Assembly: GCF_009914755.1 (NCBI RefSeq)
Contig: NC_060941.1
Direction: 5' to 3' (one strand)
Length of the DNA: 64,000 bases
From: the human T2T-CHM13v2.0 reference genome, Homo sapiens
Shown: piece by piece, positions 49,555 through 54,777 of the stretch
Numbering within the stretch: position 1 is the first letter of the stretch
How the letters are laid out: the number at the start of each line of letters is the position of its first letter
Program-made: the position numbers and the translations under genes
Notes under the pieces: model-generated
Seen by the model: only the letters and a program-made list of their open reading frames with translations
Told to the model about the DNA's origin: nothing
Database searches by the model: none

Positions 49555-50828
49555 GACAATTCTGCACAGAAAAGGAAACAGTCAACAGAATAAAGACAAC
49601 ACCAGTAGAATGGAAGAAAATATATGCAAACCAGATATTTGATAAGGGGTTAATATCCAAAATATACAAGAAACTCAATAGTAATAAAACAACTCACTTT
49701 AAAAATAGCCAAAGGACCTGAATAGACGTTTTTCAAAAGAAAGCATATAAAGAGCTAACAGGTATAAGAAAAAATGCTCAACATCACTAATCATTAGTGA
49801 AATGAAATAAAAATTTAAACCACAATGAGATATCACCTTATTCATGTTAGAATGTCTCTTAATAAAAAGATGAAAGATAACAAGTGTTGGTGAGGATATG
49901 GAGAAAAGGGATCCCTTGTGCACTGTTGGTGAGAATGCAAATTAATACAGCCATTAAGAAAAAAAGTATGGTGGTTCCTCAAAAAATTTAAAATAGTACT
50001 AACATATGACCCAGCAATCCCACTTCTAGGTGTATATCCAGAGTATATGGGATCAGAGGTTGAAGAGATATCTACATTCTCATGTTTACTGCAGCACTGT
50101 TCACAGTAGCTAAAACATGGAATCCATCTAAATGTCCATCAATTGATGAATGAATAAAGAAATGTGGTATACACACAAATAGAATACTATCCAGCCTTAA
50201 AATAGAAGGAAACTCTGTCATTTGCAACACCATGTATAAACCTAGAGAACACTACATTAATTGAAATAAGTCAGAAAAAGACAAATATCGCATTATCTCA
50301 CTTATATGTGGAACGTAATAAAGTTGAACTCATAGAAGCAGAGAATAGAATGGTGGTTACTAGCGACTAGATGGTGCAGGGTTGGGGAGATGGCGGTCAA
50401 AGGATATACATGTCTTTTTTTCTTCTTTCTTTCTTTTTTTTTGAGATGGGGTCTTGCCCTGTTGCCCAGGCTGGAGTTCAGTGGCACTATCATAGTTCAC
50501 TAAAGCCTCAGACTCTTGGGCTCAAGTGATCCTTCCACCTCAGCCTCCTGAGTAGCTGTGACAACAGGCACACACCACCAAAGGATATAAATTTCAGTTA
50601 GACAGCAGGAATCAGTTCAAGAGATCTATTGTACACCATGGTGACTATAGTGAATAACTATGTATTGTATACTCGAAAATTGCTAAAGGAGTAGATTCTA
50701 AGTGTTTTTTAAAAATAAGAATGTGAGGTAATGCATATGTATAATTAGCTTGATTTATCTATCCCACAATGTATACATAAATCAAAACACAATATTACAT
50801 ATGATAAATATATACTATATTTATTTTT
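49555..50828 (+). mobile_element. L1MA (about MA6-8) ORF2 end and 3' UTR; terminal bases resume at 51917-51950
   Basis: ttctgcacagaaaaggaaacagtcaacaga...gacccagcaatcccacttctagg...ttcaagagatctattgtacaccatggtgactatagt. Confidence 0.9.
50413..50578 (-). mobile_element. FRAM / 5'-truncated AluJ right arm inside L1MA
   Basis: atcatagttcact...gggctcaagtgatcc; TSD caaaggatata at 50398-50408 and 50579-50589. Confidence 0.85.
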
Positions 50829-51916
50829 ATTTTATTTTTTTTTAGACTATAAACATAAATATTATTGTTTGGCATTACCCCAAAGTTCCCCTTTAAAAAA
50901 ACAAATAAATGGAAATAATATATATTTGAGTGTTCTGTCTCTACTTTCTTTGAACCAAGGAGGCCTCATACTTTATGAGTTTGTTCCACCCTCTTCTAAT
51001 ATATCTGTCAACAGAGCATGGCAACAGTGTTACAAAATTTAATGTTTTAAAATTTTGAACAAATTAAAAACATGAAATTTATATTTCTCTTACATTTTAC
51101 TATTCTCTAATGAGGGAAAATGATTTAAATTTTGGACTAAATGCAACCAGTATATAAAATAATTCTCTTCTGAGTGATAGTGAAACAATTACTGAATTAC
51201 AACTATATGCAGAAAGTATTTTTGCCTAACATGTTTTCCATGTGACTAACATTATAGCTCATTGCAAGTGGTTTATTTGTTTTATAATTAATAAAGAAGT
51301 CCAGGTGGAGTTTAACACAAAAACAGAAGATAGAGAGCATTTAATTTTGTAGAGAGCTTTCAGTACTAAAATAGGTAGTCAGAATTTTCTGACTTTAATG
51401 GAGTCAGAAACTGGGTAACTTTCATTCTTTTAACTTAAATCAGTTTCTGGATTTAGTTTATCAAAATAGACTATATTGTATGTGTATTGGTGAACTAGAA
51501 ATAGATCAGCTCTCAAGAAAATGTGGCACATATACACCATGAAATACTATGCAGCCATAAAAAATGATGAGTTCATGTCCTTTGTAGGGATATGGATGAA
51601 ATTGGAAATCATCATTCTCAGTAAACTATAGCTAGGACAAAAAACCAAACACTGCATGTTCTCACTCATAGATGGGAATTGAACAATGAGAACACATGGA
51701 CACAGGAAGGGGAACATCACATTCTGGGGACTGTTGTGGGGTGGGGGAAAGGGGGAGGGATAGCATTAGGAGATATACCTAATGCTAAATGATGAGTTAA
51801 TGGGTACAGCACACCAGCATAGCACATGTATACATAGCACATGTATACATGTATACATAGGGCACATTATGTACATGTACCCTAAAACTTAAAGTATAAT
51901 AATAATAAAAAAAGAA
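50829..51916 (-). mobile_element. Composite insertion: poly(A) tail, ~670 bp non-repeat sequence and inverted L1PA3-like 3' end (putative twin-primed 3' transduction)
   Basis: 17-bp TSD atactat(a/t)tttattttt at 50812-50828 and 51917-51933; T-rich tail to 50843; TTTT/AA endonuclease site. Confidence 0.7.
51515..51916 (+). mobile_element. L1PA3-like 3' end
   Basis: aagaaaatgtggcacatatacacc...ggatgaaattggaaatcatcattctcagtaaacta...ggacaaaaaacc...gcattaggagatatacctaatgctaaatga...ccctaaaacttaaagtataataat. Confidence 0.9.
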
Positions 51917-54777
51917 ATACTATTTTTATTTTTAAATTAAAAAAATTAAAACAGCTTGTCCCCAAGAGCTGTGGAAGCAATGGAGAGGCAGACTCAGAGG
52001 AAGACGCTGCAAGAGAGATGGTTTGACTGGAGAGGCACTGAGCATGACAACAACAGGATATGGTCCAGATGTGGCAGACAGTAAAGCACATGGGGGGCTA
52101 AGAAAATGGACTTTGAAAGAGGACTGCCTAAACTGGAATCCCAGTGCCACAGAGTGCTACTCATGGAACTGTTGTGAGCTATGTGAGTCAATTCTTCTAA
52201 AGTACTAAGCACAGTAAAGGAGAAAGGTGTGCTGTACCTGTTAACTGCTATATTATTCTGAATAATTAGAATGAAGACCAATATCTGACTTCTGGGTTTC
52301 TGACTTATATGTGGGGCACAGCAACAGGGAATGAAGGCACAGTGAACATGCAGAATTCAGCATCTTTCCTCAGGCTCTGGCCATCTGAGCACACTTGGTT
52401 TTAGTGAAGTTAGCTTATAGGCAGTTCTAGAAACAAATTTAGGGAGGATTTGGGGCCCTAAGCCTAGAGATTCCAAGGTCCTTGTATAGGTTAACACAAT
52501 AGAAATGCATGTACCAGGTACAGAAGAGAGGGCCCTCATCAGGACTGGGGTACAAACTGGGGACTTGGTCCAGACACAGGTGACATCTCGTGGCTCAACC
52601 GAGGCACAGGACCACAGTGAGACAACAGCAAGGGTACCTTGGAGCAGAGCCTAATATATGGGGTGGAATTACAGGGCTTAAATCAGTGCTACCTCTTCTC
52701 AGGAGTAGCGCAGAGGACCATGGGCAGGCTGAGTATGCAGATAAGGATTATATGACTCCAAAGGTAAGGAAAAGCTGGGAGTTGGGCTGGACCTAATCCA
52801 TGTTGCATGGAGCTGCTTCACTGCCCTGTCTGGGCCTCACCTTCTTGGTGAGCAAGCAATCTGGTACCATGCCCTTTGGTGAAATCAGGCATGGAACAGG
52901 TGACTGACCTTGGGGAACGAAAGCCAAGCTGCCATTCATCACAGCCCATGGTGCAAACCTCTAAGGTAAGCCTTGGAGCCTCCAGCGCCCCAGCGGTGGG
53001 GCATCCGTCCTCTGGGCAGGGAGCTTCAATTCACACAGCAGGAGAGCCATAACATAGCAGGAGACACACAGAAGGCCTTTAAATGTCTATTTTTTAAAGT
53101 GGTTAGCAAAGCAGGAGAGAAACTGTCAGAGATCCGCAATGCAGAGTTTAATCTGGAAAGTCAGCGAAGAGGTGGAAGGAAACAGAAAACAGGAGACTGG
53201 AAGAAGAGGCTTCAGGATTTGGGGAGAGCAAAGCAAAAAGTGTTAACAAGAAAAAAAAAACAGTTGCATATCAGAAACTGCTCAATTCTCATGTCAACAT
53301 TTACAGAACACTGTTTTCCATTTTTCCGACTGCTCTATGCATTTGACAAATTTTTACTTGTTCTTAATTCTAGCTCAAAGTTCACCTCCTTTAGACAAAG
53401 CCATACCCTCTTCTGGCCTCTGTTTTAATAGATACAATGTTTGTAATAGCATATTTCAAAATATTGTGTAATGAATTGTGACTCTGGATATTATAGCCAC
53501 TCATCATTTTCTTGAGGATATTTATCCTTATATCCCCAGGACTTAGTAAAGTTCCTGGCACATATTAGCTAATGGTCAATTAATGGTCACTTAATGAATA
53601 GAAGATTAATGAATGAAGAAGGAACCAAGGAGGGAAGATGCTTTATGACTGTACAGGGTGCATGCGAGGGGAGGCAGGAAGTGAGATCTATAAAGGTGTC
53701 TTAGCATATCATGCTGGTGATGTGAGCCAAGCTAAGCATTGCAGCTTTCATCCACTGGCAAGGTAGCATAATAAAAGGCTGTAAAGCAGAATGTTTCAAA
53801 GAGCTGTTCCCCCAGTGCCATCTTCACTCTATACGTTATTAATCTCATTTCTTCCCTACTTCGAACTAATGTGCTCACATTCAAAGATTTGGCATATATA
53901 GACCCATTTAAAACAAAATGTTTCAAGTTCTCCAGAAAATAATCCTAAACCTCAACTTCTTCAAGAAATAATCCTAAAATAACCTCCCATCAGCTTCTTT
54001 GTTACTCAGTATTTTATTCTTAACTTATTGTAACCTTGTACCTATTTATTTGTCCCTTGGGAGATGATGGTTTTCTTTAAGAGTTATGAGTGTACTTTCT
54101 AGTGCCAAACTTGGGTTCAAAGCCTAGCTCATCCACCCACAAGCTTTCTGTCTTTAACTAAATTATTTAATATCACTGAGTCTCAGTCTGTTCACCTCTA
54201 TAGGCATGATAAATAATGCCTATCCACATGATTTCGGTAAGAATTGAAGGCTATTGTAAAGTTTAAACATGAACTAAACAATCAATACCAGCAGCTAGTA
54301 ATAGTGGTTCTGCCAATATTAGTTAAAAATAATAATAATAGTAAGTTTGTTCTTATGCCCTGGCATACTCTCTGGGAGAAAGAATCATCTTCTCTTTCTT
54401 AGGTTATTATTTCTTTTTCTCTCCCCTCCTACAACTGCACATCTGCCTCTTCCCTTCACAGTATTTTGCAATTCTCTGTGTGACTCAAAGCAGAGCTCAG
54501 GTTATGCATGACAGCTGCCTCTTCCACTGTGCCCTGGCACCATGGATGTCACTGCCATCCTCCACCCCATGCATGAGCCAGAACCCTGGGCTCCTTCTGA
54601 CTCACCATTCTCCCTCACCCCCACCATACACAGTTCATCAGGCTCTGTGAATCCACATCCTGAACGGCTCCTGATGCTGGCCATTGCTCTCCATGTGTGC
54701 CATCACCTTCAACAGGTTACCTGCATCTCCAACCCAGACTGCCACCAGAGCCTCCTGACTGCCCTCCTGAGGTCGCC

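What the first reader, a model, noticed from the sequence alone, without database searches (positions are those of the whole stretch)
50812..51933. Hidden L1 3' transduction with twin-priming inversion carrying ~670 bp of foreign DNA
Seen: the last bases of an old L1MA are duplicated as a 17-bp TSD (atactatWtttattttt, 50812-50828 and 51917-51933) ending at TTTT/AA. Between the copies lie a T-rich tail (to 50843); ~670 bp of AT-rich sequence I cannot match to a repeat (50844-51514), with a minus-strand AATAAT 17 nt from the tail; and an oppositely oriented L1PA3-like 3' end (51515-51916) that stops at its own A-tail and has no TSD of its own. Known: L1 read-through mobilises 3' flanks, and twin priming inverts the 5' part of an insertion. 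Inference: one RNA (L1, A-tail, flank, polyA) was primed at the terminal poly(A) and again at the internal L1 A-tail, copying a piece of another locus here during ape evolution. A repeat annotator would likely report only a lone plus-strand L1 fragment. The transduced tag should identify the source L1.
Basis: partly seen in the sequence, partly recalled or inferred. Interest (0 to 1): 0.8.

Follow-up and report, generated by a model that had tools for sequence, protein, structure and literature searches.

The report
Twin-primed L1 insertion carrying chr11 DNA
One ancient LINE-1 jumping event in an intron of CA10 pasted in a 671-base copy of chromosome 11 sequence joined back-to-back to a LINE-1 tail; this is a tidy example of a well-known process, with the twist that the LINE-1 expected at the chromosome 11 source is not there.

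Summary
A 17-nt direct repeat (16 of 17 identical) at 50812-50828 and 51917-51933 brackets four parts. These are a T-rich tail, 671 nt of non-repeat DNA on the minus strand, a plus-strand LINE-1 3' end, and that end's A-tail. The repeat ends on a canonical endonuclease site, TTTTT/AAA.

The 671 nt has a 97% paralogue at chr11:10239252-10239921. That copy is colinear with its flanks and has no tail, so it is the parent. Two further tailed, 5'-truncated copies of the same strand lie on chr1 and chr8.

So foreign DNA was moved here by RNA, in one event with twin-priming geometry.

The key prediction fails in this assembly. No young LINE-1 lies next to the chr11 parent or within 20 kb upstream of it. 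"3' transduction" is therefore inferred, not shown.

I favour a source LINE-1 that was polymorphic and later lost (about 0.6). The rival is twin priming on two separate RNAs, a chr11 transcript and a LINE-1 RNA (about 0.25).

Divergence of 2.4-3.6% suggests roughly 10-18 million years. The primate empty-site test could not be run with these tools. The kind of event is well described, so interest is low to moderate.

The parts
50585..50811 (+).
   Evidence: query 50585-50828 matched 39 other places at 78-82% identity (40 of 3864 candidates scored); alignment of 19 of them.
50812..50828 (.). Left copy of the 17-nt target-site duplication; it carries one T>A change relative to the family form
   Evidence: One search shows that the right copy is closer to the family's sequence.
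50829..50843 (-). Poly(A) tail of the non-inverted cDNA, read as ATTTTATTTTTTTTT on the plus strand
   Evidence: The chr11 parent has no such run at this point.
50844..51514 (-). 671-nt copy of chr11:10239252-10239921 (RNA sense = window minus strand); the first-strand, poly(A)-primed cDNA
   Evidence: 97% over 1-671; 16 mismatches and 1 gap column in 671. AATAAT 17 nt before the tail.
51515..51906 (+). Young LINE-1 (L1PA-type) 3' end: the last ORF2 codons (51515-51631, stop at 51629-51631) plus the 3' UTR; the inverted, second-strand-primed cDNA. One base (51515) is shared with chr11 as microhomology.
   Evidence: best non-self copies 93% (40 of 4051 candidates scored).; a relative's ORF aligns to LINE-1 ORF2p 943-1275, E 3e-213.
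51815..51872 (+). Scrambled stretch inside the L1 3' UTR: a 15-nt tandem duplication plus 9 clustered changes, private to this copy
   Evidence: (D9); no other place in the genome spans it (30 of 30 candidates scored).
51907..51916 (+). A-tail of the L1 piece (AAAAAAAGAA) abutting the right TSD copy; the site where the second primer started
   Evidence: One search gives the relatives' ends for comparison.
51917..51933 (.). Right copy of the TSD. The plus strand reads ...TATTTTT/AAATT at 51933/51934, which is the first-strand endonuclease nick.
   Evidence: Motif classes TTTT/A and others as listed in PMC12016303.
51934..51952 (+). Remaining A-rich end of the old L1 (AAATTAAAAAAATTAAAAC), continuing the element interrupted at 50828
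   Evidence: 18 of 19 family members continue with a ..AATTAAAAA..-type end directly after the TSD-homologous bases.

Best explanation
This is one LINE-1-mediated retrotransposition into the tail end of an old L1 in a CA10 intron.

Steps of the event:
1. The endonuclease nicked the plus strand at TATTTTT/AAATT.
2. That T-rich end primed on the terminal poly(A) of an RNA and copied 671 nt of chr11-derived sequence (50843 to 51514).
3. After the second strand was cut 17 nt away, its 3' end primed a second cDNA at a LINE-1 A-tail and copied about 400 nt of L1 3' end (51916 back to 51515).
4. The two cDNA ends were joined, sharing 1 nt. This is twin priming.

Most likely both cDNAs came from one read-through RNA, of the form L1 - A-tail - chr11 flank - poly(A). 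That RNA would have been made by a young L1 sitting on the plus strand of chr11 at, or a few tens of bases upstream of, 10239252. It would have been polymorphic about 10-18 million years ago and then lost.

On this reading the window holds a partnered 3' transduction with a 5' inversion, and the chr1 and chr8 copies are orphan transductions from the same source.

Shown: a single event, its geometry, the chr11 origin, and RNA mediation. Inferred: that an L1 once stood at chr11.
For: Single event:
- An anchored 17-nt TSD, 16 of 17 identical, found nowhere else in 64 kb; 0 of 100 shuffles gave a match.
- 18 of 19 relatives of the host L1 read straight across the site.

Orientation:
- TTTTT/AAA lies at the nick that primes the flank's tail.
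- The nick an L1-first insertion would need reads ..GTAT/ATAT. Motif classes are as.

Origin:
- chr11 matches at 97% over all 671 nt, is colinear beyond both ends and has no tail.

RNA mediation and recurrence:
- The chr1 copy (query nt 1-503) and the chr8 copy (nt 1-290) are of the same strand and 5'-truncated.
- Both end about 125 nt further on, 14 nt past an ATTAAA, and both carry tails.
- The chr8 copy splits an Alu, with TAATTTTT.. duplicated.

Phylogeny:
- It is star-like. In 288 shared columns the private changes are chr17 0, chr11 5, chr1 4, chr8 5, with no (17=11) versus (1=8) sites.
- The L1 piece is of compatible age: 3 private changes in 300 nt, against a mean of 2.6 for 29 relatives.

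Base rates, from passages read:
- 30% of partnered transductions carry a 5' inversion, and sources with long transductions give 36-50% orphans (PMC13009371).
- Only 2 of 17 unique-RNA/L1 chimeras in hg38 are antisense (PMC13174262).
- In 54% of twin-primed L1s (155 of 287) the two cDNA ends lie more than 20 bp apart (PMC12016303).
- A GGTT|AAAA site lies 32-34 nt upstream of the chr11 junction.
- Lost ancestral source L1s are invoked in print.
Against: - No young L1 is present at the chr11 junction. The 402-nt L1 piece finds only one hit in chr11:10219300-10246000, at 73% over 265 nt, 7.3 kb upstream. That is an older family.
- The junction itself (..CTCAGT|GACAGC..) is not endonuclease-like, so either a non-canonical site or an internal deletion must be assumed.
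- The proximal end used by the chr17 copy has only a non-canonical AATAAT. One AATAAA and three ATTAAA inside the flank were read through.
- No sibling L1 sharing this piece's private 3' UTR scramble was found.
- Only one human haplotype and no other primate could be examined.
Confidence: 0.6

Rival explanations
1. Twin priming on two separate RNAs. A non-L1 transcript of the chr11 plus strand, polyadenylated at two alternative sites, was mobilised in trans three times. In the chr17 event the first strand was primed on that transcript's poly(A). The second-strand end primed on the terminal poly(A) of a separate LINE-1 RNA, perhaps the one that supplied ORF2p. No L1 ever stood at chr11.
For: - The chr11 parent shows no L1 and no endonuclease-like site at the junction.
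- Both tails face outward, as expected if each cDNA began on a terminal poly(A).
- Antisense RNA/L1 chimeras attributed to twin priming are reported (PMC13174262).
- An old repeat spans the chr11 junction, so the junction need not be an insertion site. It could be a transcript start or an arbitrary truncation point.
Against: - Such chimeras with unique RNAs are very rare: 2 antisense of 17 in hg38. Inverted partnered transductions are common, at 30%.
- Three retrocopies arose from an AT-rich region with no RNA family and no ORF of 100 aa or more.
- The canonical first-strand site is used by the non-L1 RNA, although ORF2p prefers its own RNA. In the published model the L1 is the primary integration.
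- No promoter evidence could be obtained.
Confidence: 0.25
2. Two successive insertions. One possibility is an orphan retrocopy of chr11 first, then an L1 fragment landing exactly between its 5' end and the right TSD copy. The other is the reverse order. The second insertion would leave no TSD of its own.
For: The two segments have no demonstrated common RNA. Their private-change counts differ nominally: 2 in 498 columns for the flank and 3 in 300 for the L1 piece.
Against: - The second event would have to hit the one junction base, leave no TSD and no endonuclease site, and still produce exact twin-priming geometry.
- The private-change counts do not differ significantly.
- No second pair of repeats flanks either segment.
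Confidence: 0.05
3. The 17-nt repeat is a chance match in AT-rich DNA. On this reading the 671 nt is old resident sequence or a DNA-level duplication, with an unrelated L1 fragment beside it.
For: The region is AT-rich and low in complexity. NCBI's mask runs from 50697 to 50869, across the left copy (hub annotation).
Against: - 0 of 100 shuffles give any match with up to 1 mismatch.
- Both copies abut tails, and the host L1 family reads across the site in 18 of 19 relatives.
- The chr17, chr1 and chr8 copies end in A or T runs that the chr11 parent lacks, and they are nested 5' truncations.
Confidence: 0.02

Closest known systems
Partnered L1 3' transduction with 5' inversion (twin priming), as catalogued in tumour and population long-read data (PMC13009371, PMC12350158; passages read)
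   Same: A unique downstream tag with its own poly(A) at the endonuclease-site end; L1 sequence inverted at the other end; one TSD; sibling insertions sharing the tag, some of them orphan.
   Different: The source locus carries no L1 in the assembly examined. The inverted cDNA starts in the L1's own A-tail, not inside the L1 body. This is an old fixed copy, not a somatic or polymorphic one.
Orphan 3' transductions
   Same: The chr1 and chr8 copies: tag only, 5'-truncated, tailed, and ending after an ATTAAA.
   Different: Without a source L1 they cannot be told apart from retrocopies of an ordinary unspliced transcript. The chr1 copy has no clear TSD.
Antisense RNA/L1 chimeric insertions ascribed to twin priming on a second RNA (Law and Burns 2026, PMC13174262; abstract, section 13 and passages read)
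   Same: Non-L1 and L1 segments in opposite orientation inside one TSD.
   Different: There the L1 is the primary, endonuclease-site integration and the partner is usually a small RNA or an mRNA piece. Here the non-L1 segment holds the primary site and has its own poly(A). This locus was not found in their four held supplementary files.
Processed retrocopy with 5' inversion
   Same: Trans-mobilised RNAs can also be twin-primed: 3 of 23 processed pseudogenes in PMC12016303.
   Different: In those cases both segments come from the one cellular RNA. Here the inverted segment is L1.

Membership tests
Endonuclease-dependent L1 TPRT insertion | Target-site duplication flanking the whole insert | tested here: met
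   17 nt, 16 of 17 identical; unique in the window; 0 of 100 shuffles gave a match.
Endonuclease-dependent L1 TPRT insertion | T-rich/A endonuclease motif at the first-strand nick | tested here: met
   The plus strand reads TATTTTT/AAATT at 51933/51934. Motif classes are as listed.
Endonuclease-dependent L1 TPRT insertion | Poly(A) tail next to the TSD at the primed end | tested here: met
   A 15-nt T-rich run at 50829-50843 that is absent from the chr11 parent.
Twin priming (5' inversion) | Two segments of opposite orientation inside one TSD, with the inverted one abutting the TSD copy at the far end from the poly(A)-primed tail | tested here: met
   671 nt on the minus strand and 402 nt on the plus strand, both between 50828 and 51917.
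Twin priming (5' inversion) | Both segments derive from one RNA, with the inverted one lying just upstream of the direct one | tested here: inconclusive
   The parent locus of the direct segment has no L1 upstream in CHM13. Colinearity therefore cannot be shown or excluded.
L1 3' transduction | The non-L1 segment maps uniquely to another locus that lacks the tail | tested here: met
   chr11:10239252-10239921, 97%, colinear on both sides.
L1 3' transduction | A source L1 lies immediately upstream of the tag, in the same orientation | tested here: not met
   Nothing stands at the junction. Within 26.7 kb there is only a 73% hit to an older L1, 7.3 kb upstream. One haplotype only was examined.
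L1 3' transduction | The tag ends 10-30 nt after a polyadenylation signal | tested here: inconclusive
   chr17 copy: a non-canonical AATAAT ends 17 nt before the tail. chr1 and chr8 copies: ATTAAA 14 nt before the tail.
L1 3' transduction | Sibling insertions share the same tag | tested here: met
   The chr1 (nt 1-503) and chr8 (nt 1-290) copies. No others were found.
LINE-1 (young primate L1PA-type) 3' end | Homology to the ORF2 C-terminus and 3' UTR of LINE-1 | tested here: met
   92-93% identity to many genomic copies. A relative's ORF aligns to LINE-1 ORF2p 943-1275, E 3e-213. Reading frame.
LINE-1 subfamily L1PA3 specifically | Subfamily-diagnostic positions | not testable with these tools
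   No repeat library is on hand. The only pointers are a mean branch of 1.6% among the 29 closest copies and 2.4% divergence of the flank from its parent. Both point to a young ape-age L1.

The most novel reading that the evidence does not exclude
The insert is a two-RNA twin-priming product. A non-L1 chr11 transcript took the canonical endonuclease-primed first strand, and a separate LINE-1 RNA was captured by its terminal poly(A) at the second-strand end. This would be the mirror image of the antisense chimeras described so far. It would also imply a germline-expressed, repeatedly retrocopied transcript at chr11p15 that needed no source L1.
Probability: 0.25. Interest if true: 0.4.

Novelty: new member of a known kind. 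Interest (0 to 1): 0.25.

Why it matters
This is a cleanly resolved fossil of two textbook LINE-1 behaviours acting together. It shows that a repeat annotation reporting only 'a short L1 fragment' can hide 671 nt of DNA moved between chromosomes. The tag links four loci (chr11, chr17, chr1, chr8) into one family. If the favoured reading is right, the family records a productive L1 that left three fixed offspring but was itself lost. That is a useful caution for source-tracing studies that expect the progenitor to be in the reference. It has no evident functional consequence for CA10.

Tried and rejected
- L1 piece much more mutated than the flank. One search gave a 4.5% branch. I withdrew this: a strict count gives 3 private changes in 300 nt against a mean of 2.6 for the relatives. 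The excess came from variable columns and one scrambled stretch.
- chr17 flank 'too clean' (2 private changes against 8 for chr11). On the correct three-taxon tree this is 2 of 10, one-sided p about 0.055, so not an anomaly.
- chr11 junction as the edge of an old repeat or of an old L1 5' end, which might hint at an antisense promoter. Rejected: the repeat shared with 5 other loci runs across the junction.
- Splice-acceptor reading of ..TCTCAG|T at the chr11 junction. The pyrimidine tract is weak and nothing supports an upstream exon, so I left it as unsupported.
- Search for siblings carrying the private L1 3' UTR scramble. None found.
- Search for shorter or longer offspring of the chr11 RNA. 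None beyond chr1 and chr8.
- Rfam. Nothing reached a gathering score; 3 weak hits at E 0.25-0.41.
- Pfam on the 38-aa ORF2 end and on three relatives' ORFs. No family. The solved-structure search did identify ORF2p.
- Ostertag and Kazazian 2001 is not held. It is cited here only through papers that cite it.
- chr1 copy. No convincing TSD; the best direct repeat is 7 nt.
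Full report
**What is in the window**

- ATACTATATTTATTTTT (50812-50828) and ATACTATTTTTATTTTT (51917-51933) are direct repeats, 16 of 17 identical (family D2).
- With up to one mismatch the 17-mer occurs at these two places only in the 64-kb window. 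None of 100 dinucleotide-preserving shuffles gave a single match.
- Between the copies lie four parts: a T-rich run (50829-50843), 671 nt of 29% G+C sequence (50844-51514), a plus-strand LINE-1 3' end (51515-51906) and its A-tail AAAAAAAGAA (51907-51916).
- The LINE-1 piece opens in frame with KKMWHIYTMKYYAAIKNDEFMSFVGIWMKLEIIILSKL*.
- In the 8 of 29 genomic relatives whose flanks I printed, the element runs on upstream of this point.
- An ORF in one relative, covering the part homologous to the start of this piece, aligns to solved human LINE-1 ORF2p residues 943-1275 at E 3e-213.

**A substitute for the empty site**

No primate genome is available here, so I used the host repeat instead.
- The query 50585-50828 matches an old L1 3' end family: 39 other places at 78-82% identity, with 40 of 3864 candidates scored.
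- In 18 of the 19 copies fetched, the bases homologous to the TSD are followed directly by a ..(GTC)AATTAAAAA.. end.
- In the window that continuation (AAATTAAAAAAATTAAAAC) appears only at 51934, after the right TSD copy.
- So the family reads straight across the site, and 50829-51916 is an insertion into the last bases of that element.
- The right TSD copy is the closer of the two to the family form, so the single mismatch is a later T>A change in the left copy.

**Which end was primed first**

- On the plus strand the empty site reads ATACTATTTTTATTTTT/AAATTAAAAAAA. A nick there leaves a ...TTTTT-3' end. In the window that end is extended by the T-run and then by the antisense of the 671-nt segment.
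- This is the canonical endonuclease site. The motif classes TTTT/A, TTTT/G and TTTC/A are as tabulated in PMC12016303.
- An L1-first insertion would need a nick at ..ATAGTAT/ATATTT on the other strand, which is not endonuclease-like.
- So the 671-nt segment's poly(A) was the primary primer site. The LINE-1 A-tail is where the second-strand 3' end began a second cDNA.
- The two cDNAs meet at 51514/51515, with one shared base.
- This is exactly the geometry of twin priming as described.

**Where the 671 nt comes from**

A search of the window's own assembly (4 of 4 candidates scored) finds three places besides the window itself:
- chr11:10239252-10239921, 97% over nt 1-671;
- chr1:190828746-190829244, 97% over nt 1-503;
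- chr8:50091878-50092167, 98% over nt 1-290.

The chr11 copy has no tail and is colinear with unique sequence on both sides. It is the parent.

The chr1 and chr8 copies have these features:
- They extend about 125 nt beyond the chr17 copy's tail end, matching chr11 (nt 1-134 and 1-126 at 97%).
- They stop at the same point, 14 nt after an ATTAAA, and then carry A-rich tails.
- They are progressively 5'-truncated.
- The chr8 copy splits an antisense Alu, with TAATTTTT.. duplicated. The chr1 copy has no clear TSD.

No further copies exist upstream or downstream of the segment. The 15 and 5 extra hits in those searches are short matches to unrelated old repeats.

So one strand of the chr11 locus was transcribed, polyadenylated at two sites, and retrocopied three times.

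**Ages**

- In the 288 columns shared by all four copies the private changes are chr17 0, chr11 5 (plus one indel), chr1 4 and chr8 5. No sites group chr17 with chr11 against chr1 with chr8.
- In the 498 columns shared by chr17, chr11 and chr1 the private changes are 2, 8 and 10.
- chr17 and chr11 differ at 16 of 671 columns, plus one gap (all).
- The tree is star-like. The 2-versus-8 split is not significant (one-sided p about 0.055).
- Pairwise divergence is 2.4-3.6%. With ape substitution rates of about 1e-9 per site per year (recalled, not from a call), this corresponds to roughly 10-18 million years.
- The L1 piece has 3 private substitutions in its first 300 nt, against a mean of 2.6 (sd 1.2, maximum 5) for the 29 relatives. 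That is compatible with the same age.
- My earlier impression that the L1 piece is hypermutated came from variable columns and from one scrambled stretch at 51815-51872. That stretch has a 15-nt tandem duplication and nine clustered changes. It is private to this copy.

**The failed prediction**

- In RNA sense, chr11 reads ..GGATTCAGTCTCAGT|GACAGCTGATC.. at the junction, with ordinary sequence on the left.
- The 402-nt L1 piece finds one hit in chr11:10219300-10246000, at 73% over 265 nt, 7.3 kb upstream. That belongs to a much older family.
- The junction is not endonuclease-like. It is also not a repeat boundary: an old repeat shared with five other loci runs across it.

**Choosing between one RNA and two**

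Both models give the observed geometry. I favour a single read-through RNA from a source L1 that has since been lost (about 0.6), for four reasons.
1. Inverted partnered transductions are common, at 30% of partnered transductions. Sources with tags of 671-818 nt give 36-50% orphans (PMC13009371, Table 1 and section 8 passages). One inverted partnered copy plus two orphans is therefore what such a source should leave.
2. Antisense chimeras of L1 with unique RNAs are very rare, 2 of 17 genome-wide in hg38 (PMC13174262, section 13).
3. The terminal poly(A) of the non-L1 part holds the primary endonuclease site. That is natural for a read-through L1 RNA. It is the reverse of the published two-RNA scheme, where the L1 is primary.
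4. A gap between the internal primer and the end of the poly(dT)-primed cDNA is usual. In 54% of cases (155 of 287) the two ends lie more than 20 bp apart, and the mechanism is described. A GGTT|AAAA site lies 32-34 nt upstream of the chr11 junction.

Loss of a polymorphic source is an argument already used in print for other L1 chimeras.

Against this reading:
- The source is simply not observed.
- The proximal end has only a non-canonical AATAAT.
- One AATAAA and three ATTAAA inside the tag were read through.

The two-RNA model (about 0.25) needs no lost element. It does need a repeatedly retrocopied transcript from an AT-rich region with no RNA family and no ORF of 100 aa or more, plus a rare kind of chimera.

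**Comparison with what is known**

3' transduction, orphan transduction and twin priming, and their combination, are extensively catalogued. This locus is one more, older and fixed, example.

I found no mention of it:
- The four supplementary files held for PMC13174262 contain no row near the estimated hg38 position and no CA10 or SBF2 entry. The hg38 position was estimated from recalled CA10 coordinates, so that search is weak.
- One full-text search was run ('twin priming', 'transduction', 'LINE-1'; 66 papers, 25 listed).

**What remains open**

- The primate empty-site test.
- Whether an L1 is present at chr11 in other haplotypes or species.
- The subfamily names L1MA and L1PA3.

Noticed in passing
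window 50400-50589: An antisense Alu-like element with a leading T-rich run (about 50409-50580) sits inside the same old L1. It is flanked by a 9-nt direct repeat, AAGGATATA, at 50400-50408 and 50581-50589. This looks like an ordinary Alu insertion with its TSD. I read it only.
   Followed up: no
window 51815-51872: The L1 3' UTR has a 15-nt tandem duplication (CATAGCACATGTATA twice) followed by nine clustered substitutions. No other copy in the genome spans it. It may be post-insertion slippage or a reverse-transcription artefact.
   Followed up: partly
L004 (chr8:50091762-50092167): This sibling retrocopy of the chr11 RNA sits inside an antisense Alu and splits it, with TAATTTTT.. duplicated. 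The Alu reading rests on my recall of the Alu sequence.
   Followed up: partly
L003 (chr1:190828622-190829244): This sibling retrocopy has a tail (AAAATAAAATAAAATAA in RNA sense) but no convincing TSD; the best direct repeat between its flanks is 7 nt. It may have extra bases at its 5' junction or may lack a TSD.
   Followed up: partly
window 50844-51514, minus strand: The insert's RNA-sense strand is the same strand as CA10. The intron therefore carries one AATAAA and three ATTAAA in the sense orientation. All of them were read through by the original RNA.
   Followed up: no
L002 (chr11:10237752-10241421): In the parent locus an old L1, antisense to the retrocopied RNA, begins about 150-200 nt upstream of the junction. 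A G+C-rich block of about 700 nt lies some 250 nt beyond the distal poly(A) site. Neither was characterised.
   Followed up: no
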